64,000 nt of DNA, taken from positions 24,676,001 to 24,740,000 of the forward strand of contig CM022671.1 of the NCBI GenBank assembly GCA_012295275.1. The letters run 5' to 3'. The translations under genes and the position numbers were made by a program. Shown here in pieces: positions 27,233 through 58,363 of this stretch. This DNA comes from Chrysomallon squamiferum (lineage: Eukaryota; Animalia; Mollusca). Below the pieces are notes generated by a model. That model was not told the origin of the DNA. It searched no databases and worked only from the letters and a program-made list of their open reading frames with translations. Position 1 is the stretch's first letter. The number at the start of each line of letters is the position of its first letter.

Positions 27233-28374
27233 ATGGAGCTGTCGGAAGATGAGAACAGCGAAAAAACCGAAGAATTAAACGATTTTGATGTAAGTAACGA
27301 TTATTTTTGTGGCTGTCTTTTGCTTCAGTTTTTAAAATTTTATTTGGCTCTCCTTCTTAAATTAGCATTATTAAAATTTAGATTCTTTTTGGCAGCATTA
27401 GAAACATCCGATGACTGTCTTGGTACATAAATAAGAATTTCAGAGTAAATAATGTTATAAATCTGCATTAAAGACAGCTAAATATGCATATTGATTCATT
27501 TCTTTTAATGTGAATTTAATGTTTGATGTATGTTTAACAGAAGCATATTAAGTGACAGATTGAAAATAATCCTGCTTGTGATGTATGTTTGTGCGAAATA
27601 ACATGATATTACTAAGAGACTTGTTCATAATGCATATGTATGATAACAAATAGTTGTAGGACAAAAAATCAACGGTGAAAATGTCAACCGACAAAATGCC
27701 AGCAGTAAAATGTCGGCTACTGAAATGGTGCCTATTTCCCAAAACTTAATATACACATACCTATCTACTGCTTCATACATACATTATATACATACATACA
27801 TATACTCATAAAATATGCTTTTGTTATTTCTGTAGATGATATTTTGTCCAACGTCATCGAATAATGGTAACATTTTGTCCGTTGACATTATGTCCCTTGA
27901 AATTTTCTCTGCATTCCGTAACAAATATAAAATACGTGCCTATGAAAATGTTGTTTATGTATATATGTTTTTATATATGTATATATCGTGTATATGATAT
28001 AATGTATGTGCATCTTTCTCTTTGAATATTTGTACATATATATCTGGTGGGTTTTTGGGGGTCGTTTTATTTTTAATTTTTTTTTCGTGCAGTAAATAAC
28101 TTTGAAAAGTGTAAAAGGCTAGATCAAAAGGCTGTGATACAGTTCTTTAAACTCATTAATATATCAGTTTACTACTGGGCTCCCACAGTCTGACAAAGCA
28201 GTCCTCTGAACAAAGCTTGTAAATGCATAATAGCTGCACTTTTAATAAAAAAAAAAAAAAAAAAAAATTAAGATAAATAGAACAACAACAGTAATAATAA
28301 TAAATAAGTAAATAAATTATACAGCTGAAACAAGAAAAAACAACAACAAAAAAAAAAAAAAAAATAAATAAAAA

Positions 28375-31398: not shown

Positions 31399-33452
31399 AG
31401 AAGAAGAAAAACAATTAAGCTTCTACTCAGTGAATTACAAAAATGATTTATGACAAAGCGGGGGCTGGGGTGGGGTGGTGGGTTAATTCGCTTGTTTTAT
31501 TTTTAGGTCTCAGTTTTAGTTACGTAATGGGAAAATGAATAAATAATCGAAAACGCTGATAGCTATCAATGGAATGAAATTTATGTGCAGACTGTAAAAT
31601 GGCGAAATGGAACACAATACCTTTAACGCTTTACGTCGATGTTACTCAACCAGGCGCCAAGCTGTATTCACGAACAAATTATTTTAATGAAAGCTTCGTC
31701 TCACGCTTTCGAGCGTTATCATAGATCATCTGCAAAAACGTCAAAAAGGATTAAATCACCTAAGAGTTTATTAATTTTTCAAAGAAAGCGACATGTATTA
31801 AAAAAAAAAAAAAAAAAAAAAACACAACAACACACGAAATATATGGATTTTATCTATCTGAGGAAAGACTGAAAACACAACTCAAACAAATGACTCATAA
31901 TTTAATATATATATTTTTATTCTTTCTCAAGTTGACTGTTTGGCTATGTTAAACTCCTTTATCATTACATGAATATCTAGTTTATCACTGTAACTAATAT
32001 TTGTTCTTTAAAAGCTTGATCTCAGGTCACTAAATAAAATGTCCGTCTAACTTCAAAACACACACGCACACACACACACACACAGACACACTGAATATGA
32101 TCGTCATTATTATCACCTCCTTATGCTTATTCATATTATTATTCATATTATTATTAGTGTTGTTGTTGTTGCTACTGAGTCGAAGTCGTAGTGACCGGTG
32201 GAAGTTTTCTAAAACAATATCTGTTCTTTATAATATCGATATGGACGAAAAGTAAAACCACCGATTTTATATTTTACTTGATTCTAACCAAAGTTACCTT
32301 AATGCTACATTTAGTAACATGGCTTTGTTTCCTCACGTTCTCTATCGATTACGACCCGTTTTATGACGTCTTTAGTACTATGACGTCATCACACGACATC
32401 TTAACGAAATTGACGAGTGCACCGAAGTAGCTGTTTCCGTACCGTTTCTATGTGTAATCATTTCTCTTGGATCATTATCCTAGCGCTTTTCTCTCAGTGG
32501 ATTAAAAACCTTGGAAATAACTTAAAAACCCGTGAAGAAATTTTGCTTTCGTATTTTCTGTAAAATTTATTGGTACTTCCACAAACTGTAGTCACGGATT
32601 TATTTTCAGAATGAATGGCGAACGTTTATCGCAAGGAAACAAGGTTAGTCAAAACGGCGTTATCTCAAAACCAGTCTTTCCAGATCTATTGTTCTCATAG
32701 TATTGCTTTTTAGTCCGGTTAATTAACAAACGATTTTTACTTTTGAAGATATTTTGGATTAACTGAATAAATGGTATGTCTTTTGCGTATATTTACTCTA
32801 TCTTTTTAAATTTACAAATATATAAGGATATATTTGGAACCATTTAATTAATTCGAAATTTTTTTTTTTTTAAATTCAATTTTGTTTTCTACATAATTAT
32901 TCACTTTTTGTGAAAAAATCATGGGCGTTTGGCATCTTGTATAAATTTAGTGCGCTAAAGTGCGTTTTCGTGTAAACAACAAACATTTTATAAACGTACA
33001 GACGCTGAAAAAATCGACAGAGAGACCCATATAGTAAATACTCCTTTTATTCCTAATATAACTTTATTTTCTTTCACCAATTTCGCAGAATGCAATTGCA
33101 TGTCATGTCTACTCATTATATTTTGGTAGGCGAAAGAAAACAAATTTCCTGAAACAAATGCAAGAATTATAAATAAACTGTTAGTTATAATTAAGGAAAC
33201 CATTATGTCGAAGTAGTGTAATAAACAATGTTTTTACGTTTGTGAAGTTATTACGTTGTTTATGAAAAAGGAAGTAATATTTACAAACACGATCTTACGT
33301 TTAACATTAATTAGTTGATTAAGCAGGTCTTTCAAAGATAAAAAGCTTCGGGGTGTCAGCAGAGGAGGGGTGGCAGTTGTGTCAAATATTCTATAATTTC
33401 CTAATATTAAACCTGTGAAGGAAAGAAATGTACAGTGAACATTCTAAAACAA

Positions 33453-35537: not shown

Positions 35538-36054
35538 CCAATTCTTACTCAGGATGAAACCGGCCCAGAGGTAAGCCAGACCGACCCATCGTTATTAAAA
35601 CCGAAGGAGCGAGTCGACCTTGCCAAGCTGTGCTGGCTGCTAAACGACGCGGGAACACAGGCTTTGAGGATAACTTTCAACAACATCCACCCGCCCATCT
35701 CCCTCAAGGAACACCTCGCCCACTATCACGTGAAGGCCGTTTTACAGAGGTTGTTAGAATCCAGAGTTCTGAATCAAAAGCAGTGGTCGCTGCTTTACCC
35801 GCAGGGGAACAGGCAGTCCACGTCACAGCACTTCGATTCCAAACTGCTGTCCATCTTGCTGGAAACCATCTGTCACATGTCTCCGCCCTACCCAGGCGGC
35901 TGGGACACGTGGCCGCTGCAGATAGACAAAAGTATGAGCGCTGATCTAGTTCGTCTGCAGAAAAAATTCATACAGATAGGATCTTTAAGTTAGTGAATTT
36001 ATTTATTATTATTATTATTATAGTTGCTGCTTTTGTTAGTGTTATTTTCTTTTT

Positions 36055-36086
<32 letters not shown>

Positions 36087-36503
36087 ACTGTTGCTATTAT
36101 TATGATTAATATTGTCATAATTACTGTTGTCGTTGTTGTTTATATTGGTTTTGTTACATTAATACCTTTTCTTCTTCTTATGATTATTAGTATTAGTAGT
36201 AGATCTGATATTAATATTAATATTTCTTCTTCTTATTATTATTATTAATAGTATTAGTAGTAGATTTAATATTAATATTTCTTCTTCTTCTTATTATTAT
36301 TATTAATAGTATTATTATCTTGTTGTTGCTGCTGTTGTTGTGTAATGAATAGCAGTTGCAGTAACAGTAGTAGTAGTAGTTGAAGCAGCAGCAGTAATAG
36401 AATTAATAATAACAATAGTAATAGTAACAGTAATAATGGTAGTAATAGTAATAGTAGTAGTAGTAGTAGTTATAGTAATAGTAATAGCAGAAGTAGTAGT
36501 AGC

Positions 36504-36543
<40 letters not shown>

Positions 36544-37106
36544 TGGTAGTAGTAGTAGTTAGTAATACTAGTAAATTTAGAAAGAATGAAAAACATTAAT
36601 AACTGTCCGTTATTACATGTCAAACATAACTTTCCCAGGATGAGGTACAAGGAAGGAAATCTACCTTTGGATCAGAGAATGAATTTTAAATAGTAACTCT
36701 TAGTTCTTTCAACAGGAAACAGCTAGTTTGTCACCATGGTCTTTAATACGATTTTTTTTTTTTTTTTTTTTTTTTTACACCTCTAGGTGGCGTTCGAAAC
36801 GAGGAGTTTCCGGTCCTGTGGGAACAGGTAACAGACGTACTGGAGCGTCTCGGAGGCCACTATGTGAAGGTGCAAATCCAGCGGATTGAAAACGAATCCA
36901 TTCCTGGAGAAATGGTAGACCATTACATACGTTTGGTGAAGGAACTCTGGAGCTACGGACACGACAAAAGCATCAGACGTCTCAGACTACTTTATGGAAC
37001 TGCCAATAAATCGAAAATAGCTACTATAACCGCTGTTGAAAGCAAAACGAAAGCAGATGAAACGGAAGGTTTATTATTATTATTATTATTATTATTATAA
37101 ATATTA

Positions 37107-37166
<60 letters not shown>

Positions 37167-37970
37167 TCATTTTAGGCTTCAAAAGAAAACAAAAATAATT
37201 TTATTTTATTTTACGCTTTATGTCTCTGTACGTTTGATCGGAGATTAAATTCATCTTACTGTACGATTATCGTAAATGCTTCGTGTCTGTTAGAAACGGC
37301 AATAAAAGATCCCGTGTTGAAAAAGAGTGACAGCGTTTGTGCTTTTTGTCATCATTAAACGTTTTTGGAGAAATCAAGTAGTATTTTGAATATATATATT
37401 ATATATATATATATATATATATTTGTACAAGCAATTGTCACAAACAGTAACATATTATTTTGACCAGTGCTAAATAAAAATACAATTTCACTGTTTTATT
37501 TATTATTTATAATTTTTTAATAGTTTTTTTTTATTGTACATGCAAACATAAAAATATTTTTAAAATTATTTTCTTTTCACCTTTGCGAAATAAATCGCAC
37601 ATTTTTTAAACATTATTTTCATTGTACAAACAGATTTTGCTCACTTTTAGGTCTGAGTCTGGAAGATAAAACGGTGTTGACGAGGATGTCTAAATTTTTG
37701 GCAGACAACATCATTGCCGAAGATATTCTCGATCGTCTTCAGCAGGGGCAGTTAATCAAAATAGCCGACAGACAGGAGATCATGTCACATGCGAAGAACG
37801 CAGATCAAGTGTCGTTAATAGTGGAAAAGATTCAAAATTCGAAACTTTCGTATGGACTGAAATTGCTTTGCGATGCCCTGAAATTTAAATATCCAACAGT
37901 TTATGATGCTTTGATGAAATGCAGAAAAACGGTCTACAAACAAGGGGTGAAAGAAACGATAGGTAAGCAG

Positions 37971-38003
<33 letters not shown>

Positions 38004-38565
38004 AAATTTATGATTTGGAAGTGAAATTCTTGCCAGAGAAGAAATTATTCTGTACATATTTACCTTGGTTCTTTTATGTAATGTCTGGGGGCTTTAAAGT
38101 ACGCTGTAAATATAATTTCACATAATTAGAATCAATATAATTGATAAGAATTATGTAAAAGCACATGCCGTCATGTACAGTGTACATAAATTTCTGTTTT
38201 AAGACACATCGGTATTCAATTTCTGTAGCAACTGTTTTTCTATCACGCACAGTTATTGTTTATAATCTTGCTTACATATAATATAAATATACTTTGTTTC
38301 ATCACTGGACGAGATTCTTTAACTGATTGAATTTAAATGTATTGTTAATCTGATCAGGGATTTTGATATTTTACAGACTTAGTAAAAGTTTGTCAAGATG
38401 TTTTGACGACGGAGTACAAAAACGTGTATTCCAACTATTCTCCAGTTCCCTGGATAGAGAGTATGTGTATCGAAGTCTACGACTATTACATTCCTCTCGA
38501 CATAATCGATCAGCAGGGGTAACTTCACTTCTGTCATCGATAAATGAATTTATACTATTTACAAA

Positions 38566-38608
<43 letters not shown>

Positions 38609-38739
38609 GGAAATAAATAAATAAAAATTAAGAAAAATGAGAGAGAGAAAAAAAGTCAAAACGAGAAAGTGAAAAGGAGAGTATGTATGTTAGAGAATGA
38701 AACAGAGTGAGAGAGAAAATGTCTGTATGTGTGGTATAT

Positions 38740-38789
<50 letters not shown>

Positions 38790-38829
38790 AGAAAGACAGA
38801 GTCACAGACAGAGACAAACGCAGACAGAC

Positions 38830-38881
<52 letters not shown>

Positions 38882-41132
38882 AGACAGACAGACAGACAGA
38901 CAGAGATGGAGATCGCTATAATAGTATTGCTATGATATTTTTAAATTTAGAAACAAAGTGCCCCTGAGTGACATGCTGCCTGCTAAAAACACAGTAGGAC
39001 ATGGGAAAAAAGTCATCCTAGAAGGAATGTCTGGCAGTGGGAAATCCATCTTGGCAGCCGTTTTGGCTTCTTTGTGGGCAAACGATAAGAATTTCTTTAA
39101 TCATAAGTACGACTTCTTTCTTCTCATCGATGCTGAAGTTCTCGAAGAAGACTTCTTAAAATCAGTTTACAAGATGCTGCTTCACGATAACGGAAAGCTA
39201 AGTTTGAAAGAGTTCTGGTCAGTTTTGGAAGATAACGCTCGCAATGTGATGATCATTATAGATGGTTTTGATGACCGCACCGATTGCCAGGAGCTGATCG
39301 AGATTATGAATGGAACGAGACTGCGAAAAAGTACTGTGATGGTGTTAGTCACTCCAGAGATGCACGTTCGCAAATTTTTAACTCCCGATTATATGCTTTT
39401 TAACACAGGACTGGATGAAGATAACATGATGCACTTCGTCACGTTATATTCTAAGCTCCTTCATTTTAATCCAGATAGATTTGAGGCTTTCAAGGAATAC
39501 CTTAAAAAGAAAGACTGGCCTTTGCTCATACATTTGTCTTCCCCTTTCATTTGCCTGATGCTGCTCTTGGTGTATCATACAAACAAGCACATCAACTTGC
39601 TGAGTCTCAATACTTTGACCAGCCTATGTGAGCAGTTCTTCTATGTAATGTCGCAAAATGTTTGCAAAAAACTAAGCCTGGCTTTCATCGGCAATGAATT
39701 TCCCACTGCGGTCAATGACATAATGCTGGATTTAGAAAAAAAAGCTTTCTCGACTCTAATTTTAAACAAACCACCTGTCATAGAAGGGGAAACTTACAGA
39801 CGCCTGTCTGGTGTTTCCCTCTCTAGGCACGCGATTAGCAGCAGGAATATCGCTAAATCCAAATTTAAATTCATTTGCTCAGTGATGACAGACTTCCTTG
39901 CAGCCCGTCACATAGCAGATATGACGTTTGAAGATATGTTAAGAACGATTAGAGAAAACAAATTCTTGAAGAAATCGCGCTATGCTCAGCTCGTTGGATT
40001 TATATGTGGTATATACGGACAAGATACGGAAACACCAACCCTGGGCTTACTGTTCCGCGAACTCGTCAGTGGATGTTACCAGACTCATTTCAAAGCGTCA
40101 ATGAAAGAAGAAGAAAGTGAAGAGTATTCGGTGAAGACGCTTTCCGAACCAACATCAGCCCATATTTTGAATTACTCGCACATTCTGCACGGAGTCTCAG
40201 AATGTAGCGGGAAATATATTGCATCTAACATTGCGGGCACGACAGTAGCTCAGGTGATTTTCGTCAGAAGAGAAGGACTTTTTCACACCAATACGATTTT
40301 AGGAATGTCTCACCTTTTTCAGTCTCAGATCTGTAATGTAACACACTTAGAGATAAACCTCCTTCCTGTGTATCTTTATCAGACGCAGGTGTACACGCGA
40401 TTTGGAGAGGCACTTGGAGCAAACGAATTCCTAGCACACTTGAGAATTTACTGGTGGTCATTAGCTGTTTTGGCCAAATTCCTGAAAGTGCTAATGTACA
40501 ATGCCAAATCTTTGGAAACTCTACATATCGAGGACTGTACAAAAGCACCGTTGACTAAAATTGCAGCTGCCACATGGGATGACCTTCGTGATGTCTGTGA
40601 AAACCTCAGACATTTAAAGAAGTTCATGTTTCATAACTGTAAAACTGCTGCGGTAATTTGTCACGTTTTCCAGAAAATTCCAAACACTATTCAGGAACTG
40701 GACTTCACTGGAAGTCCATTCAATCTCATGTGTGCCAGCGAAGTGGCAGCATACCTGGAAAAATCCAGCTCGTTAAGACTTCTCAATCTGTCTAACACAA
40801 AACTGCAGAGTTCGGGACTAAATGCTTTAGCGCAGGGAATAAAACTCTCAAATTCTATACAAGAACTGAACATTTCCCGAATAGATCTGGACAAGGTAGG
40901 CATTGCTGCTATTGCTGAATCTATCAAGTTAAGCACCTCGCTGGTGACCCTTGACCTCAGCCACTCTGAACTGACCTTCTACATGTGTCAAAAGCTCGCT
41001 GATGCTATTCTCCACTGCAGGTCCATGAAAAAACTAATTCTTGTTTCGTCTAAAGTATCTTCACACGGACGTGCGGCCATCTCTTCAATAACCCATCGCA
41101 AAGTGAACCAACTGAAAGTTGTCGGATTGTGA
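27233..41132 (+). CDS. NLR-family protein: DZIP3-like HEPN, CARD/death fold, NACHT, LRR; ~1136 aa
   Basis: Exons 27233-27289 (or alternative 32611-32643), 35553-35988, 36787-37068, 37651-37962, 38377-38518, 38951-41132; all GT-AG, 3411 nt in frame. HEPN_DZIP3-like segments: LAKLCWLLNDAGTQALRITFNNIHPP, LNQKQWSLLYP, FDSKLLSILLETIC, GWDTWP, SADLVRL, WEQVTDVLERLGG. The CARD-like exon reads LTRMSKFLADNIIAEDILDRLQQGQLI...LLCDALK. Walker A GMSGSGKS, Walker B IIIDGFDD, HD1 SPFICLML, WHD FKFICSVMTDFLAA. RI-type LRRs include IQELDFTGS, LRLLNLSNT, IQELNISRI and LVTLDLSHS. The first exon is less certain than the rest. Confidence 0.88.
27653..27917. mobile_element. Foldback MITE with ~15-bp subterminal repeats in NLR intron 1
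   Basis: The left arm has repeats of GACAAAATG(T/C)CAAC; the right arm has the inverted copies CATTTTGTCC and GTTGACATTATGTCC. Confidence 0.55.
32611..32643 (+). CDS. Candidate alternative first coding exon of the NLR (MNGERLSQGNK)
   Basis: TTTTCAG|A ATG AAT GGC ... AAC AAG|GTTAGT. It is phase 0 like exon 27233-27289, and is preceded by a CpG-rich patch with TGACGTC motifs at ~32170-32440. Confidence 0.45.
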
Positions 41133-42246: not shown

Positions 42247-42482
42247 AGGATTCATATTCTACTAATAAATGCTATAAAAATTAAAAGCCGTGGAGGTGAT
42301 GAAATCTGATATGGAGATATCTTAAAAGAATTTGAAAAATCACAGTAAAAACATTATTTTATTATTTTAATTAACAGAAATAACAGAATTTTAACGAAAT
42401 GCAGAAATTTCTTCACAATCTGATTATTTCCGTATTTTTCTTTCATGATTTCCCTGTAACTTAAAGGATAAATTATCTTTTA

Positions 42483-42532
<50 letters not shown>

Positions 42533-43187
42533 TGATGATGATGATGATGATGGTGTTGGTGATGAAAATAAAAAGAAGAGAACTAACATTGACAGTGTGA
42601 TATTTCTATATACTTAAACGAATAGCTCTATTATATATAAACACATATTTCCATATTAATCCTTATATATATCGAAACATTAGTCTTTAAAATGAATAAT
42701 TTACAAATATTTATCCTAACTGGATTAGAACTAATTAATATTCCGCTTCAGTTCCTAAGTGGCTCAAGTTTTAATTATTAATATTATATTTGTTTTTCAA
42801 ATTAAATTTTATTATAATGTTATCCATATTGGCGGTCAATTACTGAAAGGCTCAATTATATAATCAATTATAGAGACATTAAAATAAACCATTTAGAATA
42901 ATTACAACAACAACAACAAATCAAATGAAATAGCAATTAATATAGTCACACTTATTAGTTAAACGTTAAGGGAGATAACTCTAATAAACTAAATAGTACA
43001 TCAGGCTAATTTTTTTCAAAATATTCATCTTTTCCCTCCCGCTTTTGGAGGCAATAATTTTGGAAACAGTGATTTTGAAATTCTTCTGTGTGATAAAAAC
43101 AGTTAAAAAATCAGACGATATAACTTCAGCAAAATCATGTGACTGGTGATATCAAAATAGCACAAACGTCTATCTCTGCCTTTGGTC

Positions 43188-43739
43188 ATGAAAGTATGCA
43201 TTCGCTTGTTTGCCGAGATGAGCAAACGATTATTCGAATCGAAACATCATACGCAAATATATGCGAAATATAGACCGACATATGGCCAAAAAGTTTATGA
43301 CAAAATAATAAATTTTTATCAAGAAACTTGCAATGATTTTAAACTCGCTTTGGATGTTGGTTGTGGTTCGGGTCAAGGTACTAAACCATTGGCCAAGTAT
43401 TTTGAGAGTGTCATAGGTATCGATATTAGTGAAAAGCAAATAGAAGCTGCTTCAACGAATATTGCGAATATAAAGTTTCAGGTGGGATCTGCGGACGATC
43501 TTCGTTTCCTTGGAGACAACAGCACTGATTTGATAACAGTAGCCCAAGCTATTCACTGGATAAACACTGAAGGTTTTTATACCGAGGCAGAACGAGTGTT
43601 AAAACCAGGAGGTTCCATTGTTGTTTATGGTTATGGCATCTGCAACCTTGATAACAAACTAGCGCAAGATATTTTCATAAAGGTGGATTAGACTGTTTTC
43701 TAGTTCATAATTTTGAATTAAAAAAAATTTTAATTTTTA

Positions 43740-43777
<38 letters not shown>

Positions 43778-45226
43778 TTTTGTAATTATTAAATTGGAAT
43801 TAAACAGTCTGTTAAAATTTTAACTTTAAAACAATTAAATAAAAAAATAAATATGGTTAAAAAAATTATTATTATTATTATTATTATTTATTACAAGACT
43901 ACAATTTACTATTTATAATTATTTATTTTCTCCTGGTACCATAATTACTTATTTATAATGCAATGTAAATATATTAGTTTTAACTAAGAAAACAATTACG
44001 TGTAAACATTTACAGTTTTAAATATATTTTTATTTTTATTTTATAAAATTAGTAAAATAATATTAAATCTATTTCAGTTTTTTAGAGAGACTCTAAATGG
44101 ATATTGGGACAGTAGCAGAAAGCATATTGACAACCATTTGCAAGAGTTCACATTACCATTTGCTGGTTGGAAAAGGTATTTAAAACAGGAATAGCAACAA
44201 CAGCAAGAACCCCAAAAAAAAAAAACCATACTAGATGATTATTTATTTATATTAAGATCATAAAAAATAAAAAAAAAAAAAATGATAAAAATAATACTAA
44301 AATAAAAATTAAAAATAAATAAATATATATAATTAAGAGAAAAAAAAAAAAAAAATTATACCACCTTATTCATCCTGCCTTAATAATTCAGACCAGATGT
44401 AATATTTATACTGGTTAAACACACTGCTGATCATCTTTTTAAGTGTTGTTATTATTTAATAGAGATGACAGTTTAAAGATGGTTGAAGACTGGTCTATTG
44501 AAGACTTTCTAGGTTATTTGTCATCAGGGTCTGGTTATCAAGGCTATTTGAAGGCAAACCCATCAACTAGAGTACTTGATGAAATGAAGTCGAGGTATGT
44601 TATGAATTTTATTATATACGATTCATTTAAGTTGTTTTTAAATTTCACTAAATGTTGTCCACTAAATGTTGTGATTCTTTATGGAATGTATTTTAAATTG
44701 TAGCAGAATAGAAATGATCAAGTAATATTAAGCATCAACATACAAAGAAAATTAAGAAAACTCACACTCAGTTATATCTTAGATAGCATTTTACTGAGAG
44801 TCAGTGTAGTCAGAAAAAAAGAAAAGAAAAGCATACTCACTTTCAGTTGTGCAGATTTAACATTAATGAATAATTCAAGGATTTGCACTAAATAGTTATC
44901 TACCCACTTATGTGCTTTGAGCTCCAAATGAAGATAAGGTCAACTAGAACAGGCAAATGTCAGTAGAAGATTAATTTTATAAACAATGGTATGTTGATTT
45001 AAGTGGCAAAGGTTTATTGAAGCATGTCATGAATATTTCATTGTATTTTAATTGCTGCTAACATATACTTCTGATTTATCAGCTAACATCCTGCATCTAT
45101 TCTAACAGCTTCAGTTTCTTTAGGTTCAGGGAGCTCTATGCTGATCAAGGTGATGGAGAAAGGAAAGTTCACATAGAGTGGCCTGTTTTTATGTTGATGG
45201 GACATAAACCTTCACATAGACAGTAG
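43188..45226 (+). CDS. Class I SAM-dependent small-molecule methyltransferase (Methyltransf_11; DDB_G0268948/Tmt1-Crg1-like), copy 1, 275 aa
   Basis: Exons 43188-43682, 44078-44175, 44463-44594, 45124-45226 (828 nt). Motifs: YAKYRPTY, motif I ALDVGCGSGQ, VIGIDISEKQI, DLITVAQAIHW, RVLKPGG, C-terminal WPVFMLMGHKP. A second in-frame Met at 43218 (MSKRLFE) may be the true start. Confidence 0.92.
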
Positions 45227-46365
45227 CATGCTTAATTAAACTCCAAGATAAATTACTGTACAATATAATTTGTATGCTTGAAGATGTAATCCTTTGGATA
45301 CACAATGAAAATAATGTACTCCATAAAGGCAAACGGCAAACAGGACACAACAGAAGATAAAATAAAACATATCCTTGATACACCTTCCCATTTTATCCAG
45401 GATAGGTCCTTCGTATCATCTGTATGCTTTTGTCAGAAAAACAAAATCAGTTTGATATTTCATTTAAATTAAATCTGTTCTACTGAAGAATAAACCATAC
45501 TTAGCACCTTTTAAAAGAACAGTTCTTCAAAGCAAAGGATTTTTATTTTCCAGTCTGGTTTCAGTCTGTTATGAGAATGAGTAGGCTGTGGTACAAGGAA
45601 AGATAATTCTCATAACCAGTCTTCTGCATAATGCCACTGGACTTTATCCATTCCATCATTTCATCTAGATCCATATGAATAGTTTATAAGTAACCATAAT
45701 ACATACACAGGTATTTGTGAAAAGATGTACATGAGAGGTCCTGTTCTGCTATTATTAAATAAAACATTCTGTCCAGAAATATTTCATTATTATCTGTTAG
45801 CTAATGCTGGAGGCAAAGGAAGAATTCAGAATCGTATTAACTTTATCAATGCTAAGATTCACATTCATGTGAGAAAAGACTAACAATCAACACGTTACAT
45901 CCTGTAGAGTTTATTCACGTAACAGTTTAAACAAGACCTCACAACACAAAGTACATTTCACAAAGATCATTGGAAGTACAATGTAGCATCATTATGTTTT
46001 TTCTTCAACAGGACTACAAACTTAGTAAAAAGTAAGAAAAAGATGTGCAAATATTCAGTTTAAAAAAAAGAATTAAAAAAAAAAAAAAACCTGAGGAAAA
46101 GGAATGCTGAAAAGTAACAATTATTTGCGCTAGTTTTGTTCTCTGTGACTGAAAATAAATATTGGAATGTTAATGTATATGGGTATGAGAATTATACATT
46201 AATAATTAAAAATGCAAAAAAAGAAAAAAAAAGAAAAGGATTTAAAAAATAAAATGTAAGTAATAACAGAGTTTTAACGAATGCAGAAATTTCTTCACAA
46301 TCTGATTACTTCCGTATTTTGCATTTCTTGATTTCCCTGTAACTTAAAGGATAAATTATCTTTTA

Positions 46366-46403
<38 letters not shown>

Positions 46404-47049
46404 AGATGATGATGATGGTGTTGGTGATGACAATAAAAAGAAGTGAACTAACATTGACAGTGTGATATTTCTATAGACTTAAACGAATAGCTCTGTTATA
46501 TATAAACACATATTTCCATATTAATCCTTATATATATCGAAACATTAGTCTTTAAAATGAATAATTTACAAATATTTATCCTAACTGGATTAGAACTAAT
46601 TAATATTCTGCATCAGTTTCTAAGTGGCTCAAGTTTTAATTATTAATATTATATTTGTTTTTCAAATTAAATTTTATTATAATGTTATCCATATTGGCGG
46701 TCAGTTACTGAAAGGCTCAGTCATATAATCAGTTATAGAGACATTAAAATAAACCATTGGGAATAATTACAACAACAACAAATCAAATGAAATAGCAATT
46801 AATATAGTCACACTTATTAGTTAAACGTTAAGGGAGATAACTCTAATAAACTAAATATTACATCAGGCTAATTTTTTCAAAATATTTATCTTTTCCCTCC
46901 CGCTTTTGGAGGTAATAATTTTGGAAACACTGATTTTGAAATTCTTCTGTATGATTAAAAATAGTTAAAAAATCAGACGATATAACTTCAGAAAAATCAT
47001 GTGACTAGTGATATCAAAATACCACAAACATCTATCTCTGCCTTTGGTC

Positions 47050-49249
47050 ATGAAAGTATGCATTCGCTTGTTTGCCGAGATGAGCAAACGATTATTCGAA
47101 TCGAAACATCATACGCAAATATATGCGAAATTTAGACCGACATATGGCCAAAAAGTTTATGACAAAATAATACATTTTTATCAAGAAACTTGCAATGATT
47201 TTAAACTGGCTTTGGATGTTGGTTGTGGTTCGGGTCAAGGTACTAAACCATTGGCCAAGTATTTTGAGAGTGTCATAGGTATCGATATTAGTGAAAAGCA
47301 AATAGAAGCTGCTTCAACGAATATTGCGAACATAAAGTTTCAGGTGGGATCTGCGGACGATCTTCGTTTCCTTGGAGACAACAGCACTAATTTGATAACA
47401 GTAGCCCAAGCCATTCACTGGATAAACACTGAAGGTTTTTATACCGAGGCAGAACGAGTGTTAAAACCAGGAGGTTCCATTGTTGTTTATGGTTATGGCA
47501 TCTGCAACCTTGATAACAAACTAGCGCAAGATATTTTCTTAAAGGTGGGATTAGACTGTTTTCTAGTTCATAATTTTGAATTAAAAAAATGTAAAATTTT
47601 TTATTAATTTTTTATTATTATTATTATTTTTTAACTTTTTGTAATTATTAAATTGGAATTAAACAGTCTGTTAAAATTTTAACTTTAAAACAATTAAATA
47701 AAGAAATAAATATGGTTAAAAATTATTATTACAAGACTACAATTTACTATTTATAATTATTTATTTTCTACTGGTACCATAATTACTTATTTATAATGCA
47801 ATGTAAATATATTAGTTTTAACTAAGAAAACAATTACGTGTAAACATTTACAGTTTTAAATATATTTTTATTTTTATTTTTGAAAATTAGTAAAATAATA
47901 TTAAATCTATTTAAGTTTTATAGAGAGACTCTAAATGGATATTGGGACAGTAACAGAAAGCATATTGACAACCATTTGCAAGAGTTCACGTTACCATTTG
48001 CTGGTTGGAAAAGGTATTTAAAACAGGAACAGCAACAACAGCAAGAAAAAAACACAACAACAACAAACCCCAACCCAACAACAACAAATAAATAAATAAA
48101 CAATCAATTAAAATAAAAAAGGCAGTTTACTATTAATGTTTATTTATTTCATTCCCTCCAAAACGCCACAAATCCTTACAAAATACAACAAAAAGTTTTT
48201 TATAATCGTACTAGATGATTATTTATTTATATTAAGATCATAAAAAAAAATAATAATAAAATGATAAAAATTATACTAAAATAAAAATTAAAAATAAATA
48301 AATATATATAATTAAGAGAAAAAGAAATAAAAAAATATACCATCTTATTTGTCCTGCCTTAATAATTCAGGCCAACTCTAACATTTGTATTGGTTAAACA
48401 CACTGCTGATCATCTTTTTAAGTGTTGTTATTATTTAATAGAGATGACAGTTTAAAGATGGTTGAAGACTGGTCTGTTGAAGAGTTTGTAGGTTATTTGT
48501 CAACATGGACTGGTTATCAAGCCTATTTGAAGGCAAACCCATCAACTAGAGTACTTGATGAAATGAAGTCGAGGTATGTTATGAATTTTATTATATATGA
48601 TTCATTTGTTTTTAAATTTCGCTAAATCTTTTCCTAAAAAAATGTCACTAAAATGTTACAAATATTAAGAGGTATGGTTGTCAGTCTTTATGGAATGTAT
48701 TTTAAAATGTAGCAGAGGAGAAATGATCAAGTAATATTAAGCATGAACATACAAAGGCATTATTCATTTAAGAAAACTCACATTCAGTTATATCTTAGAT
48801 AGCATGTTACTGAGAGTCAGTGTAGTCAGAATTTCAGAAAAAAAGAAAAAGAAAAGCATACTCACTTTCAGTTGTGCAGATTTAACATTAATGAATAATT
48901 CAAGGATGCACTAAATAGTTACCTACCCACTTAAGTGCTTTGAGCTCCAAATGAAGATAAGGTCAACTAGAACAGGCAAATGTCAGTAGAAGATTAATTT
49001 TATAAACAATGGCATGTTGATTTAAGTGGCAAAGGTTTATTCAAGCATGTCATGAATATTTCATTGTATTTTAATTGCTGCTAACATATACTTCTGATTT
49101 ATCAGTTAACATCCTGCATCTGTTCTAACAGCTTCAGTTTCTTTAGGTTCAGGGAGCTCTATGCTGATCAAGGTGATGGAGAAAGGAAAGTTCACATAGA
49201 GTGGCCTGTTTTTATGTTGATGGGACATAAACCTTCACATAGACAGTAG
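47050..49249 (+). CDS. Class I SAM-dependent methyltransferase, copy 2, 275 aa
   Basis: Exons 47050-47544, 47916-48013, 48442-48573, 49147-49249 (828 nt). Same motifs as copy 1; the exon-2 acceptor is AAG rather than CAG. Confidence 0.9.
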
Positions 49250-50079
49250 CATGCTTAATTAAACTCCAAGATAAATTGCTGTACAATATAATTTGTATGC
49301 TTGAAGATGTAATCCTTTGGATACACAATGAAAATAATGTACTCCATAAAGGCAAATGGCAAACAGGACACAACAGAAGATAAAATAAAACATATCCTTG
49401 ATACACCTTCCCATTTTATCCAGGATAGGTCCTTCGTATCATCTGTATGCTTTTGTCAGAAAAACAAAATCAGTTTGATATTTCATTTAAATTAAATCTG
49501 TTCTACTGAAGAATAAACCATACTTAGCACCTTTTAAAAGAACAGTTCTTCAAAGCAAAGGATTTTTATTTTCCAGTCTGGTTTCAGTCTGTTATATGAA
49601 TGAGTAGGCTGTGGTACAAGGCAAGATAATTCACATAACCAGTTTTCTGCATAATGCCACTGGACTTTATCCATTCCATCATTTCATCTAGATCCATATG
49701 AATAGTTTATAAGTAACCATAATACATACAGAGGTATTTGTGAAAAGATGTACATGAGAGGTCCTGTTCTGCTATTATTAAATAAAACATTCTGTCCAGA
49801 AATATTTCATTATTATCTGTTAGCTAATGCTGGAGGCAAAGGAAGAATTCAGAATCGTATTAACTTTATCAATGCTAAGATTCACATTCATGTGAGAAAA
49901 GACTAACAAGCAACACGTTACATCCTGTAGAGTTTATTCACGTAACAGTTTAAACAAGACCTCACAACACAAAGTACATTTCACAAAGATCATTGGAAGT
50001 ACAATGTAGCATCATTATGTTTTTTCTTCAACAGGACTACAAACTTAGTAAAAAGTAAGAAAAAGATGTGCAAATATTC

Positions 50080-50115
<36 letters not shown>

Positions 50116-53100
50116 GGAAAAGGAATGCTGAAAAGTAACAATTATTTGCGCTAGTTTTGTTCTCTGTGACTGAAAATAAATATTGGAATGTTAATGTATA
50201 TGGGTATGAGAATTATACATTAATAATTAAAAATGCAAAAAAAAAAAAAAAATAAAAAAAGAAAAGGATTTAAAAAATAAAATTAAATAAAAAATAAAAA
50301 GTAAGAAAAAACAGAATTATGTATATTTTTAAAGGCTCAATTAATGTATATACAAATAAATTTCAAAAAGATCTGTGAATTTAAAAAATTTCTCAAAACA
50401 AGATTTACTTGTTAATAATAATAATGTGTATTTATTTAAGAAAGGAAAAATAAAAAATAAAAATTTAAACATTTAAAAATTGTGTATAATTTAATCACTT
50501 TATTTTATATCAGAATGTGTTTATTTTTACTTTTACTTTTTTTTTCAAATGTATTATTCACTATTGTGAGCAATAATTTTCCCCGAAACTTTCAAATAAA
50601 TTTTATGTCTGAACACAATTATAATGTTATTTAAAATCATTAGCAATTTCTAAATGAAATATTTATAAAAACAATTTGTATTAATATACTACTTTCTTAA
50701 TTTGTAACATCTGCATGACTCAAAACAGGAAAAATAAATGTAAATGTATAAATAATAGTTTGTAATATATATTTATTACAAGTTAAAAAATTCTATTAAC
50801 AAAAATCTATTTGCTGAAGTTGAACTGGAGATTAAATTACGAAAAAAACAAAACATGGATTGTTATCAAGTAATGATTCTATGATGCCACAAAAATACTT
50901 TGAAAACAATAACAAAATATAACAAGTATAAATAAATACACAATGTCGATAATATTAAATAAATAATTGCACATACCAGGTAAATATAATAATTCACAAC
51001 ATCACAAAGATTGTCACAAATCATAAATATATAATGCTAGCAAAAACAGGAGTAGAGCTAAAAGTAAAATGTATTTTGAAAATGCAGTTTGATTGTTTGG
51101 TTTATAAAGACTTGTAAGAAGGTGTAGCAGTTTATTACACTTGTGTTCCGGAAGGCTAAAACTGTAAACTATACTAAATATACAAAAATGAATTAACTTT
51201 TTTTTTTAGGTGTATTAGTTTTCTTGCAAAATTTATTTATGAATATGAGAAATTACAATTCATTAATGGATTAGGAAATGCCATTAAAATATTGATGATG
51301 CATCATTAGTTTAGATATTAAATAGATATTTTAAATGTATGATTATGAAGAAAGGTGGGATACTTTTGAGCAGTAACATCATTCAGTTAATGTTTCAGGA
51401 ATGTAAAATATGAAATGGGATAAGTTTTTTTTCCCTTAAACTAATAACAAAACAAACTGATCTCTGATATTGAGGAAATTTATATTTATATATATATTAA
51501 AAATGGAATAATATTTTATGAACTTGTAATGAATAACATGGATGACTAAACTGAAAAAGATTTTATTTTTATCATTTTGCTAATTTTTCATAAAATGTGT
51601 TCATTTATTTAAATAAACAATGAAGTAGGGAAAAGATGATTGTGTGAAAAAATTTAAAAAAGAAGAAAAATAATGAAGTAGAAAAGAATAAATATATAAT
51701 TTCCTTAAGTATTATACTAAGGACAATATGGGATAAACAGAATGTGAATTAAAAAATGGAATATTTCTTATTTTAATTGCTGAAATATTAAAAAGGGGTA
51801 AATTTTAAATTTAAAAAAATAAAAAATAATAAAAGCAAGCAATAATAAATAATTTAGGTGGTTTTTTTGGCAGTAAAATACTAATCTTGTATGTGTAACA
51901 TATGTTCAAGTGCTAATAAAAAAAATGAAATAAAAATGAAATAAAAGCAAAATAAAAGATAAAACAAATTTTCTTACACATATTGTCAGTCTTAATGCAT
52001 GCAGATTTTGGCATACACCAAAAATAGAATAAGAATTTTGTTAAAAGAAAAAAGAAGAAAAAAGAAGAAAAAAAAAGCCAACAAAAAAGACCCCAAATAA
52101 CAATACTGAACAGAGATTAATATATCTGCAACACACTTGACAATAATAAAACTATGTACAGCATGTATGTCACAGTTTGATATATCACATTCTAAAAGAT
52201 CACTTTAGTCATACAGCTTGTGGTAGTCACAGCCTTGTGGCATTTTGTAAAATATATTCTCTATAAAATCAACTATACAGTAAACAATATATTTACAGTT
52301 TGATAATATCACTGATACAAATACGATTTATAGACACAATTTAAAAAAAAAAAGTATCCTCAAAAACCCTCAAAACCCCACCAAAACCCCAGATGCTTTT
52401 AATGTAATCATTTCATCTTTTTTGGAAAGCATTTTATCATGTTAAAAGATATATATATATTTTCATATTGAAAACTTGCAGCTTAAAGGATTTTAACAGT
52501 GTGATTATATTGGTGGGGATTTAATGCAGAGTATGATTAATTTTTAACAACAAATAATATTTTCTCCAAAATAAATATTAAGTATTTTGTTTCAAATCAA
52601 AATAATCTTTATAAAGCACAGTTCAAACATTTTAACACAAATATTGTTATAAATGCTGCAATTCCATGAATATCCAATACCTTATCACATTAGAATATTT
52701 TAATACACCCTGTATAATTAAGTGCTTATTCATATGCATTAATATATGTCATATAAAACAATCCAATAATATATTTATATACACACCAGTAACATGTTTA
52801 CAAAATAGTGTACACTTTTACAACAGAAAATAATATATAATTTATATATATACATTATATATATATATCTTTTACATGTAAATATTTATCATTTGAAATC
52901 AGTTTTCAGTGATAATGTTATTGGTAAATTCAATATCTTATTTCCTTACCTTGCAACCAAACCATTAATTTTGAATAAAAACATAGAATAGATCAATCTT
53001 AAACACAAGCTAATTTATTTCATTGTTTAAAAAACAAAATAGTATTTGAATGTTTTTGAATTATTTTTTTCTTCTAATAATTATCAAAAAAATAAATAAA

Positions 53101-55229: not shown

Positions 55230-58200
55230 TTATTTATTTTCAATCAGAGTCTGCAATCTCAACACAAGATCTCGAGAGATCTTCAGTACTTGCTTTGCAT
55301 TGTGTCGCTCAGCCATTTCTAACATGAATAATTAAAAAATACAAAAGAGAGTTTGTGAAAATAGAAATAATAAATTCCTGTCTGAGCTGAAAATGATAAA
55401 AACAGAGATAATAAATTCCAGTCCAAGTTGAAAAACTTTATTTGGAAACATGTTAAATTTGAACACAGTTGCCATACTTGTGGTAAAGGTACCTATATTA
55501 ATGGAAGTAGACATCCTGTGTTTTATTTTACATTAATATCATTAATGTTTTACATGTTCTTTGAAATCAGAACATTTTAAATATTTCCACAACTGATTGA
55601 CAATGGCTAAATAAATAAAAAATACGGTTCTTGTGTATGTTTTTGTAAAAGAACAAGAACTCTGTACTCACCATTGAAGAATTTGATGATGTCGGTGAAA
55701 TCCATGTTGTTGTCGAGGATGATGTCTCTGTAGTACTCAACCAGAGCCAGAGCGATAAAAAGCACAAAGTGAGATGAACTGATGTGCTTTGCTGCCCATA
55801 TCGTCTCCCAAACAGAAAACACGTCTTCATACACCAGCTCTGTTTTAACAACAAAAACATGCTCAGTTATTCTGTCATCAACATAAAAAATAACATAATG
55901 TTCTGCATTCTGGATCATGGATCTTATTTCAAATCGACTTGAATATCAGAAACCAAATGAGATATTGCAATACTATTTCACTGTTCTAATATAATCTTAA
56001 ATGTCAGTACAAAAAGAAAGACAAATAAATAATCAGACAAAATACACTCCATTGGTCTTATTTACCAGATTCAATAATTCTGCAACAGAAAAAAATAATG
56101 AATAGGTCTTTTTTTTCTTTCACTGAAGATTCCTGACTATCAGTATAATTGAAAACTAGGAAACCTAACAGTAAAAATTCTTTCAATTAGAGAAAAAAAA
56201 GAAAAGAAAAAAAGATGAATAAAAAAATAAATATATTTTGCCACATCAAAAGATTTTTATTAATATCATATTAAATTTTAAACAAATATTATGTTTTATA
56301 GAAATATAAAACACCATACCTCTTTTAAAATCCAAGAGAAACCACCGGTAACAGAAGTAGAAATGAGTGTAGTCTCCATGCTGATGCATGTGTTCAAACA
56401 GCTCAGAGTCCAGAATCTAATAAAACACAGAATTAAATATAGTTAATTAAATCTTTAAAAATTTGGTTATCAAACTCAGTAACGGTAATTGTTATTTGCA
56501 AACACAATAAAATTCAAGACACGAGAATTAAAATGGAATTTTAAACTGTAACACAATTCTGTTTAAAGATAAGAGTTTAAACTTTCAAACTGATAGTTAA
56601 TTAAATTAATTTTATAGAATTGAAATGGAAATTAGTTATAATATTTATAATTTGGATTTGGTTTCAATATAAGACTACGGTAGTGACAATTAATTTATGA
56701 AAAATGAATTAGATGACACAGACACACACACACACACGCATGCACACACACATAAACTTATCTACCTGTATAAGAGATCTCATGTTGGCAAAGTGTGTAT
56801 CCATGGCTCCACCATGTGGGAAGTTAGCTGACATTCTCTTCATCAGCTCACAGAAACAGCTGTAGGTTAATGCCTCTGAAATATTTAAAACATATATATC
56901 ATTGGGCTACTTATTCATTACATATCCGAAACACAAGTCATATTTATCTACTAAATCGTAAATTTGTGAAAATACTTAAATTCTAAATATTTTTTTTTTT
57001 ATCAAATATTAATTTCTTTAGCAATTTGAAATGAGTTTATAGTCTGAGATGAAGTTACTACCAAACCATATATTTGTTTCCTTTTCTCATTCATATGTAT
57101 CGTACTTTAAGCACTCTCAAATTTAGATAGATTTACATTGTTAGATTAAGAGCAGCTGTAAAGAATTTTAAACAGAAATTCTCCTTTGACAGAAGTCACT
57201 GAATATAAGTAATAACAGCAACAACAACAACAACAACAATAATCTTAATAATAAAATGTAAGTACTTTCAATAAACTTATTTAATGATGTAATTTTAAGC
57301 TAAACATGTTAAAGAACAGTGGACTACTAACCATCATCAAAAATGACGAGAAGAGGAGCAACCAAGTCACACATTCCTTGTACATATCCAACATCAAGAT
57401 GCTGCCACACGTAACTATTGACAAGTAAAACAAATATTTAATTAATATTATAAACATACACATTTATTTATCAAAAGAAATATTGCTTGCAAGAAGTGTT
57501 TAAATGACCTGTAAATAATATTTAACTGTATATAATGTATATAAATATTTGCTATACAATGAAAAACATCTTAGTACAAAACTATAAAATGACTCTCCAA
57601 ACACAAAAAAATCAATTAAAAAAAACCCCCACTCACGTGCACATAACATTGCGTAGTTTTTCCAGGTTTTCGTGACTGAAATACCAATAGTTTCTGTCAC
57701 ACCTCTGTACATCTTTGTCTATTCTGTGCCAGTTCAGAGCTACATCCTCAAGCAGTTCATTCTGCAAATATACAAAAACTTTTATTTTATATAATTTGTA
57801 ATGTAAGTAGACTTGGTGGTGTTTTCTCTGACATTTTCTCTTTTGTCATGACAATACTTCATCTATTTATCTATCTATATATATATATATATATATAATA
57901 GAATAACAATAAAATGATAATAAATGAATAAATAAATATAAAAATAAATGAGTAACTAATAATAATAATAATATAATTAAAAACAGAATAAAGTTACTAA
58001 ACAGTTACAAATTTGCATATCATATCTGTGGATATTTAAGGATATTTCTATGATGGAAAATTTCAGACTCCCATGTATTCTGTGAATTATAAACAGTTTT
58101 CTTCTTATAGTATAACATGTTATATTCAGCTTTCTTTCTGACTGGGGGAACGGCACCTAAAGATAAATTTTTTTATGACCTGAGGAATGATCGGACAAAT

Positions 58201-58322
58201 AATCTACACTTTACTTGATGAGTTGTTTCTAGTTCTACTCAGTGCTCCAAATAGCAAACTGCTGCTAATTTACAATAACTGAATGTCATCAGTGTGTTTC
58301 CTCTTTTATAACAAATTCTAAA

Positions 58323-58363
<41 letters not shown>

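What the first reader, a model, noticed from the sequence alone, without database searches (positions are those of the whole stretch)
35553..41132. NLR with tandem HEPN and CARD N-terminal modules (HEPN-CARD-NACHT-LRR)
Seen: one continuous spliced frame joins a DZIP3-like HEPN domain, a CARD-like exon, a NACHT domain and RI-like LRRs; the ORF track shows only fragments. Established: NLRs are STAND-ATPase immune sensors that oligomerise to activate an N-terminal effector. CARDs recruit caspases or adaptors, and HEPN domains are dimerisation-dependent RNases in many prokaryotic and eukaryotic defence systems. Inference: an invertebrate receptor coupling an RNase-fold module to death-fold signalling. 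I do not recognise this four-domain order from characterised proteins. It is the strongest candidate for an undescribed system here.
Basis: partly seen in the sequence, partly recalled or inferred. Interest (0 to 1): 0.82.

Follow-up and report, generated by a model that had tools for sequence, protein, structure and literature searches.

The report
Ancient mollusc NLR, dead RNase domain
This snail-type gene encodes an immune-receptor-like protein shared with other molluscs, worms and brachiopods, whose RNA-cutting-type domain lacks the usual catalytic residues, so it likely signals through its caspase-recruiting domain rather than by cutting RNA; the domain order itself is already in print.

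Summary
The gene is real. Five GT-AG exons (35553-41132) give an open frame with HEPN_DZIP3, CARD, NACHT and LRR modules. RNA contigs show the exon 1-2 junction and two alternative first coding exons (1128 and 1136 aa); junctions 2-4 rest on homology. It is not undescribed. It is the orthologue of Aplysia LOC101849611, already published as NACHT + LRR + death-like + DZIP3-HEPN, and of catalogued Lottia, Capitella and Lingula NLRs. It sits in a 100/100-supported lophotrochozoan NACHT clade whose mollusc part follows the species tree. The RNase reading fails: 0 of 22 family HEPN domains keep the catalytic Rx4-6H motif, against 5 of 9 coral ones. The NACHT switch is also eroded: winged-helix His in 1 of 39 family rows versus 24 of 24 others, sensor-1 Arg in 8 of 40 versus 25 of 25. 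Best reading: an ancient, apparently single-copy CARD-signalling NLR with a pseudo-RNase head and a non-canonical nucleotide switch. I did not find that double erosion in the papers searched. No function has been tested. The scan had not noted this gene on other DNA. New member of a known kind.

The parts
27233..27289 (+). Alternative first coding exon B (ATG, 19 codons, GTAAGT donor); gives the 1136-aa isoform
   Evidence: Loose end of one RNA contig (run X2, depth 5.5) maps here uniquely; open frame
32611..32643 (+). Alternative first coding exon A (ATG, 11 codons, GTTAGT donor); gives the 1128-aa isoform. Untranslated part probably starts near 32405-32411 (inferred from loose-end length only)
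   Evidence: Loose ends of RNA contigs in runs X1 and X3 map here uniquely; open frame
35553..35988 (+). Exon 1: most of the DZIP3-type HEPN domain; the catalytic Arg position is Phe (35967-35969) and there is no His after it
   Evidence: PF18738 E 1.8e-21; covered by RNA contigs in 3 of 3 RNA runs; motif alignment
36787..37068 (+). Exon 2: last HEPN helices and a variable linker
   Evidence: PF18738 E 1.4e-6; exon 1-2 junction in the X1 contig
37651..37962 (+). Exon 3: CARD
   Evidence: PF00619 22.1 bits, under cut-off; orthologues pass; the abalone model's residues 242-343 match caspase-9 CARD chains, Z 14.8, rmsd 1.6-1.9 A, 92-100 aligned
38377..38518 (+). Exon 4: pre-NACHT helix and PxPW motif
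   Evidence: Colinear with P0001; motif table
38951..40268 (+). Exon 5, first part: NACHT (Walker A 39024-39047 intact; Walker B 39252-39275; sensor 1 without Arg), HD1, winged helix (Cys at the conserved His position, 39876-39878), HD2
   Evidence: PF05729 E 1.2e-12; closest solved NACHT by sequence is NLRC4; motif counts
40269..41132 (+). Exon 5, second part: about 11 ribonuclease-inhibitor-type LRRs and the stop codon
   Evidence: Family profile hits ribonuclease inhibitor E 9.7e-25; 11 repeat strands in the abalone model; 0.92 of exon-5 words held by RNA run X1

Best explanation
The gene encodes this snail's copy of an ancient lophotrochozoan HEPN-CARD-NACHT-LRR protein whose HEPN lacks the catalytic Arg and His, and which likely works as a cytosolic NLR that signals by clustering its CARDs onto a CARD-bearing caspase or adaptor, with the HEPN predicted to serve as a non-catalytic binding or regulatory cap. 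Shown: gene structure, four modules, orthology, loss of the RNase motif, and erosion of the NACHT hydrolysis and ADP-lock residues while Walker A, the first Walker B Asp and the HD1 Pro are kept. Inferred: it still binds nucleotide but is not gated by the usual ADP-His lock, so the off state would be set by the HEPN cap, the LRR or a partner protein; ligand sensing, oligomer formation and caspase recruitment are inferred from NLR precedent only.
For: Same four-module order in molluscs, a brachiopod, a nemertean, two annelids and a flatworm. NACHT tree: 40-row clade at 100/100, bivalves and gastropod groups sorting as the species do, window sister to Gigantopelta plus one unnamed row. Rx4-6H in 0 of 22 family HEPNs versus 5 of 9 coral HEPNs; PMC3710099 section 6 states the His is essential where mutated; pearl-oyster DZIP3-HEPNs keep the motif in 194 of 202 (PMC9646362). 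CARD fold confirmed on the abalone orthologue and the CARD is among the two best-conserved modules in mollusc pairs (HEPN 56%, CARD 54%, NBD 40%, LRR 36%). NACHT residues, family versus other rows: winged-helix His 1 of 39 versus 24 of 24; sensor-1 Arg 8 of 40 versus 25 of 25; extended Walker B Glu 6 of 40 versus 25 of 25; Walker A Lys 32 of 36 versus 25 of 25; first Walker B Asp 40 of 40. PMC11508797 predicts an NLRC-caspase-GSDME route for this group in silico.
Against: No experiment on any family member turned up in the papers searched. An apparently one-to-one, slowly changing gene is unlike the expanded pathogen-sensing NLR families, and fits a non-immune scaffold as well. NLRC4 also lacks the sensor-1 Arg yet is a working inflammasome (PMC2323615 table), so that residue alone says little. 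HEPN conservation is partly general to the fold: mollusc versus coral HEPN identity (36%) equals mollusc versus other lophotrochozoans (34%). The family keeps its own conserved His residues (positions 54 and 108), so an alternative active site is not excluded. Folds were predicted for orthologues, not the window's protein.
Confidence: 0.55

Rival explanations
1. A conserved non-immune scaffold (developmental or housekeeping), comparable in logic to oocyte NLRPs or NLRX1/CIITA, where both enzyme folds have become structural.
For: One row per named mollusc species in the tree; papers count one NLR in Lottia, Crassostrea gigas (PMC3879445) and Aplysia (PMC9334734). Human NLRs without the winged-helix His are NLRP6, NLRP8, NLRX1, CIITA and NAIP (PMC2323615). 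An oyster gene 'CgNLR-2' rises 16.7-fold at morula-gastrula and ignores challenge (PMC4346834).
Against: CgNLR-2 could not be tied to this family (supplement unreadable). A well-conserved CARD argues for death-fold signalling.
Confidence: 0.22
2. A negative regulator or decoy: the dead HEPN and eroded NACHT bind and damp active HEPN-NLRs or caspases.
For: Both catalytic centres eroded; active DZIP3-HEPN NACHT proteins are expanded in pearl oyster (PMC9646362).
Against: The gene is kept in species reported to have only this one NLR (Aplysia, Lottia), which leaves few NLRs to damp.
Confidence: 0.13
3. One reading: an activated oligomer brings HEPN domains together to cut RNA while the CARD signals death, here through a non-canonical active site.
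For: Family-specific conserved polar residues in the HEPN: His108 20 of 22, His54 18 of 22, Gln136 19 of 22, Tyr113 21 of 22, none shared with 9 coral domains. PMC3710099 notes HEPN families using an upstream His instead. Arg kept at the catalytic position in 3 of 22 (Lingula, Tubulanus, Capitella).
Against: In the cited alternative-site families the motif's basic residue is kept; here it is lost in all mollusc rows and in the window (Phe).
Confidence: 0.08

Closest known systems
Aplysia californica NLR LOC101849611 / XP_012937299.1 (PMC9334734)
   Same: Orthologue (P0010; inside the 100/100 clade). [quoted passage not shown]
   Different: Different species; Aplysia has also lost the Walker A Lys. 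The passages read do not discuss the lost HEPN motif or the wider orthology.
Lottia NLR Lotgi1|152683, Capitella Capca1|207210 (PMC3879445); Lingula LaNLRC XP_013410021.1 and the Brachiopoda-Mollusca-Annelida NLRC branch (PMC11508797)
   Same: These are P0007, P0045 and P0038, members of the same clade; exon organisation grouped with genes having NACHT and LRR on one exon, as here.
   Different: Both papers describe death-fold/CARD-NACHT-LRR only; 'HEPN' has 0 occurrences in either main text.
Expanded DZIP3-HEPN-NACHT(-LRR) proteins of corals and pearl oyster (PMC8260672, PMC9646362, PMC8662601)
   Same: Same HEPN family at the N-terminus of a NACHT protein.
   Different: Those are multi-copy and mostly keep Rx4-6H; the five coral NACHT proteins scanned have no CARD hit and keep the winged-helix His. 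They fall outside this clade.
Vertebrate NLRC4 and NOD2
   Same: NLRC4 is the closest solved NACHT by sequence (E 1.8e-5); NOD2 is the closest by fold for the abalone model (Z 30.3, rmsd 5.7, 702 aligned); CARD-NACHT-LRR order.
   Different: No HEPN; both keep the winged-helix His (H443, H603), whose mutation in NLRC4 is activating (10.1101/2022.07.19.500537). Orthology to either was not tested.

Membership tests
NLR (NACHT-LRR receptors) | NACHT domain | tested here: met
   PF05729 48.4 bits, cut-off 26.7
NLR (NACHT-LRR receptors) | C-terminal LRRs | tested here: met
   Weak in the window by Pfam; family profile hits ribonuclease inhibitor E 9.7e-25; orthologue model matches NOD2/NLRP3 over 345-1124
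NLR (NACHT-LRR receptors) | All modules on one transcript | tested here: inconclusive
   Junction 1-2 seen; contig length fits the whole mRNA; junctions 2-4 supported by gap-free homology only
NLRC (CARD-bearing NLR) | CARD N-terminal to the NACHT | tested here: met
   Window 22.1 bits (under cut-off); orthologues 26-48 bits; caspase-9 CARD match Z 14.8 on the abalone model
Canonical ADP/ATP-switched NLR | Walker A GxxxxGK[S/T] and first Walker B Asp | tested here: met
   Intact in the window; Lys 32 of 36, Asp 40 of 40 in the clade
Canonical ADP/ATP-switched NLR | Winged-helix His (FxHxxxQE) and sensor-1 Arg | tested here: not met
   Window has Cys and Thr; His 1 of 39, Arg 8 of 40 in the clade
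Canonical ADP/ATP-switched NLR | Ligand-triggered oligomer that activates a caspase | not testable with these tools
   Needs experiment
DZIP3/hRUL138-like HEPN domain | Profile match PF18738 | tested here: met
   76.9 + 28.6 bits on two exons, cut-off 27
DZIP3/hRUL138-like HEPN domain | HEPN fold by structure comparison | tested here: inconclusive
   Elysia fragment model: best match Csm6 (4rgp_B) Z 6.5, rmsd 4.0, 115 aligned, within the range of generic helical bundles; no Foldseek hit at E<=0.001
Active HEPN RNase | Rx4-6H catalytic motif | tested here: not met
   0 of 22 family domains, window included; 5 of 9 coral controls have it
Lophotrochozoan HEPN-CARD-NACHT-LRR orthogroup (Aplysia LOC101849611) | Falls in one clade with the published members | tested here: met
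   40-row clade 100/100; 24-row subclade 100/98 holding all named molluscs
Lophotrochozoan HEPN-CARD-NACHT-LRR orthogroup (Aplysia LOC101849611) | Single copy per genome | tested here: inconclusive
   One copy in the window; no genome held; databases are clustered; Macrostomum has several records

The most novel reading that the evidence does not exclude
The conserved NLR of molluscs, annelids, brachiopods and nemerteans is a double pseudo-enzyme: its ADP lock has been given up and control has moved to the dead HEPN, which binds RNA (or a partner) through a family-specific surface and then frees the adjacent CARD. That would be an NLR triggered from its N-terminal RNase fold, a mode not shown for any animal NLR in the papers I could search, and the core inflammasome-like sensor of a large part of the animal kingdom.
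Probability: 0.15. Interest if true: 0.75.

Novelty: new member of a known kind. Interest (0 to 1): 0.36.

Why it matters
Many molluscs are reported to have only one true NLR, and this is it. Whether invertebrates have inflammasomes is an open question (stated in PMC11508797), and a single conserved gene in oysters, mussels, abalone and Aplysia is the obvious one to knock down. The sequence shows two things that change how to test it: the HEPN should not be assumed to be an RNase, and the NACHT lacks the residue that holds other NLRs off. The architecture itself adds nothing new.

Tried and rejected
Whole genome: none held, so copy number and synteny are open. A second laying of RNA contigs returned nothing, so junctions 2-4 remain unseen. 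Homologue search with exon 5 alone found only 2 proteins among 7995 candidates; the Gigantopelta query found 33 among 7993. Complex prediction of two HEPN copies (abalone residues 18-205): no answer, score 0.00 in both runs, alignment not used, controls not folded; it bears neither way. Foldseek on the isolated HEPN model found nothing at E<=0.001; the wide structural search gave only Z<=6.5. Supplement of PMC8662601: 0 hits for HEPN or three accessions in the 1 file held. Supplement of PMC4346834 unreadable. PMC7773633 and PMC8195603 passages gave nothing on this gene. Search for 'CgNLR' gave 6 papers, 4 irrelevant; 'pseudo-ATPase' had 0 occurrences in the 10 listed papers. Earlier scan notes by place and by sequence: nothing. 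First attempt at exon A was off by one base, corrected. Rejected: separate genes for HEPN and NLR (gap-free orthologues; an unnamed 1164-aa orthologue with all four modules sits on a 4115-nt contig); a lineage-specific expansion of the coral or pearl-oyster type (tree); a pseudogene (open frame, spliced RNA).
Full report
OBSERVATION. The window is AT-rich, repeat-laden animal DNA. Between 35553 and 41132 five exons with GT...AG introns join into 1117 codons without a stop. Pfam finds HEPN_DZIP3 in two pieces on exons 1 and 2, a CARD just under cut-off on exon 3, and NACHT with weak LRR hits on exon 5. The model aligns to Gigantopelta LOC121367661 without a gap over residues 14-763 at 53% identity, and at 49% over the LRR part. 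That protein carries HEPN, CARD (29.7 bits, above cut-off) and NACHT.

RNA. Five public runs hold exon 5: four RNA runs of one study and one run of unrecorded kind. I laid 3 of the 4 RNA runs and the unrecorded one on exon 1. In X1 a 3856-nt contig leaves the genome at the exon 1 donor and continues with exon 2; the X2 and X3 contigs end inside exon 1; X5 runs through both borders like DNA. Upstream, X1 and X3 continue into an exon at 32611-32643 and X2 into one at 27233-27289, both starting with ATG after an in-frame stop. Exon B rests on one low-depth contig. The X1 contig length fits the full spliced mRNA plus 269 nt of 3' UTR, but junctions 2-3, 3-4 and 4-5 were not seen directly because the second laying returned nothing.

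FAMILY. The Gigantopelta query returned 33 proteins; 16 score 600 bits or more, the 14 with a source name are molluscs, and the next scores 84. A profile of 13 of them searched against 1.84 billion representatives added full-length relatives named as Mizuhopecten, Lingula, Tubulanus, Owenia, Capitella and Macrostomum, all with HEPN, CARD and NACHT above cut-off. For the tree, 129 proteins covered 250 or more positions of a NACHT-to-winged-helix profile; I dropped 14 near-duplicates and used 65 of the remaining 115: the 44 family-like rows and 21 chosen others. Macrostomum did not pass the coverage filter and is not in the tree. Forty rows form a clade at 100/100; 4 of the 44 fell outside and were counted with the others. 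Within it a 24-row subclade (100/98) holds all named molluscs, bivalves and gastropod groups sort as the species do, and the window is sister to Gigantopelta plus one unnamed row (midpoint root). This is the pattern of a one-to-one orthologue, but copy number could not be counted; there is one copy in the window.

HEPN. PMC3710099 (section 6 read) defines Rx4-6H as the active site and reports the His essential in RNase L, RloC and PrrC. In the alignment, coral domains read Arg-Asn-x4-His where the window has Phe and no His. The motif is present in 0 of 22 family domains (two of them fragments assigned by HEPN similarity only) and in 5 of 9 coral domains; 3 non-mollusc rows keep the Arg without the His and 2 bivalves have a His without the Arg. 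Pearl-oyster DZIP3-HEPNs keep it in 194 of 202 (PMC9646362, passages). Against a clean 'dead' call: the family has its own conserved His54, His108, Tyr113 and Gln136, absent from corals (numbering of the 1117-aa body), and the same paper allows alternative sites, though in families that keep the motif's basic residue. The HEPN is the best-conserved module among molluscs (56%), but mollusc-coral identity (36%) matches mollusc versus other lophotrochozoans (34%), so part of this is fold constraint.

NACHT. Walker A is intact in the window; the first Walker B Asp and the HD1 Pro are invariant in all 40 clade rows. The winged-helix His is in 1 of 39 (5 of 39 allowing two columns either way) versus 24 of 24 other rows, the sensor-1 Arg in 8 of 40 versus 25 of 25, the extended Walker B Glu in 6 of 40 versus 25 of 25, and the Walker A Lys is replaced in 4 of 36. 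PMC2323615 (passages) assigns the His to phosphate coordination of ADP and lists NLRP6, NLRP8, NLRX1, CIITA and NAIP as lacking it; it also shows NLRC4 lacks the sensor-1 Arg. 10.1101/2022.07.19.500537 (passages) states that mutating the His activates NLRC4 and bacterial NACHTs. So nucleotide binding is probably kept while hydrolysis and the ADP lock are not under the usual constraint (inference).

STRUCTURE. An AlphaFold2 model of the abalone orthologue (pLDDT 83.7) matches NOD2, NLRP3 and NLRC4, has about 11 LRRs, and its residues 242-343 match caspase-9 CARD chains at Z 14.8. The isolated HEPN model of an Elysia fragment (pLDDT 88.8) has Csm6 as best match at Z 6.5, which is inconclusive.

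MECHANISM. Most likely a cytosolic NLR that, once released, clusters its CARDs and recruits a CARD-caspase or adaptor, with the HEPN as a non-catalytic cap or binding module and the off state set by something other than the ADP-His contact (0.55). Rivals: non-immune scaffold (0.22), negative regulator (0.13), RNase through an alternative site (0.08). All steps after the sequence features are inferred.

WHAT IS KNOWN. [quoted passage not shown] PMC3879445 (passages) lists Lottia 152683 and Capitella 207210 as NLRs and counts one NLR each in Lottia and Crassostrea gigas. PMC11508797 (passages and section 5) includes the Lingula protein, finds a Brachiopoda-Mollusca-Annelida branch and predicts an NLR-caspase-1-GSDME route without experiments. 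PMC8662601 (section 7) reports HEPN-NLRs in nine invertebrate taxa; PMC8260672 (passages) reports coral expansions; PMC3710099 (passages) lists DZIP3-HEPN fusions to CARD, NACHT, death and LRR. PMC4346834 (passages) mentions a developmentally induced oyster NLR whose identity lies in a supplement I could not read. I found no statement of the lost HEPN motif or eroded NACHT switch in this family, and no functional study, in searches and the passages above; the library lacks most subscription journals, and supplements of most of these papers were not seen. Two earlier scan notes on protist HEPN-NACHT-WD40 genes agree that HEPN-NACHT fusions are known; none covers this gene.

VERDICT. Observation confirmed, interpretation partly supported. 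A new member of a known kind. The modest added value is the recognition of one old orthogroup with both enzyme centres eroded and two first exons. Interest 0.36.

Noticed in passing
window 42376-50293 (+): Tandem duplication of about 3.6-3.9 kb at 94-95% identity, each copy with a SAM-dependent methyltransferase gene (ORFs 43161-43691 and 47005-47607; Methyltransf_11 E 2.7e-23 for the first).
   Followed up: partly
window 55607-60611 (-): Exons of a probable Rab-GAP (TBC) gene; 55607-55942 hits TBC1D15 at E 0.004. Resemblance to SGSM proteins is recalled, not tested.
   Followed up: partly
window 32381-32388: A perfect TGACGTCA palindrome (CRE-type site; name recalled) about 25 nt before the inferred start of exon A, with a near-copy at 32364; the 8-mer occurs 4 times in the window, so chance is possible.
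   Followed up: no
proteins P0004, P0010, P0003, P0044: Walker A Lys replaced (Gln in Haliotis, Asn in Aplysia and P0003, Met in P0044) in separate branches of the tree.
   Followed up: partly
window exon 1, about 35793-35825, and orthologues: A loop after the LYP motif of the HEPN is basic in most family members (2-7 Lys/Arg in 18 of 22) but not in corals (0-1) or in the window (1); a possible RNA or membrane contact.
   Followed up: no
proteins P0001, P0013, P0015: Long acidic insertions: about 140 residues in HD2 of Gigantopelta, and in the winged-helix region of Babylonia and Nucella.
   Followed up: no
proteins P0079, P0089: Some coral HEPN-NLRs have also lost the catalytic Arg while keeping the His; P0079 has two HEPN copies.
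   Followed up: no
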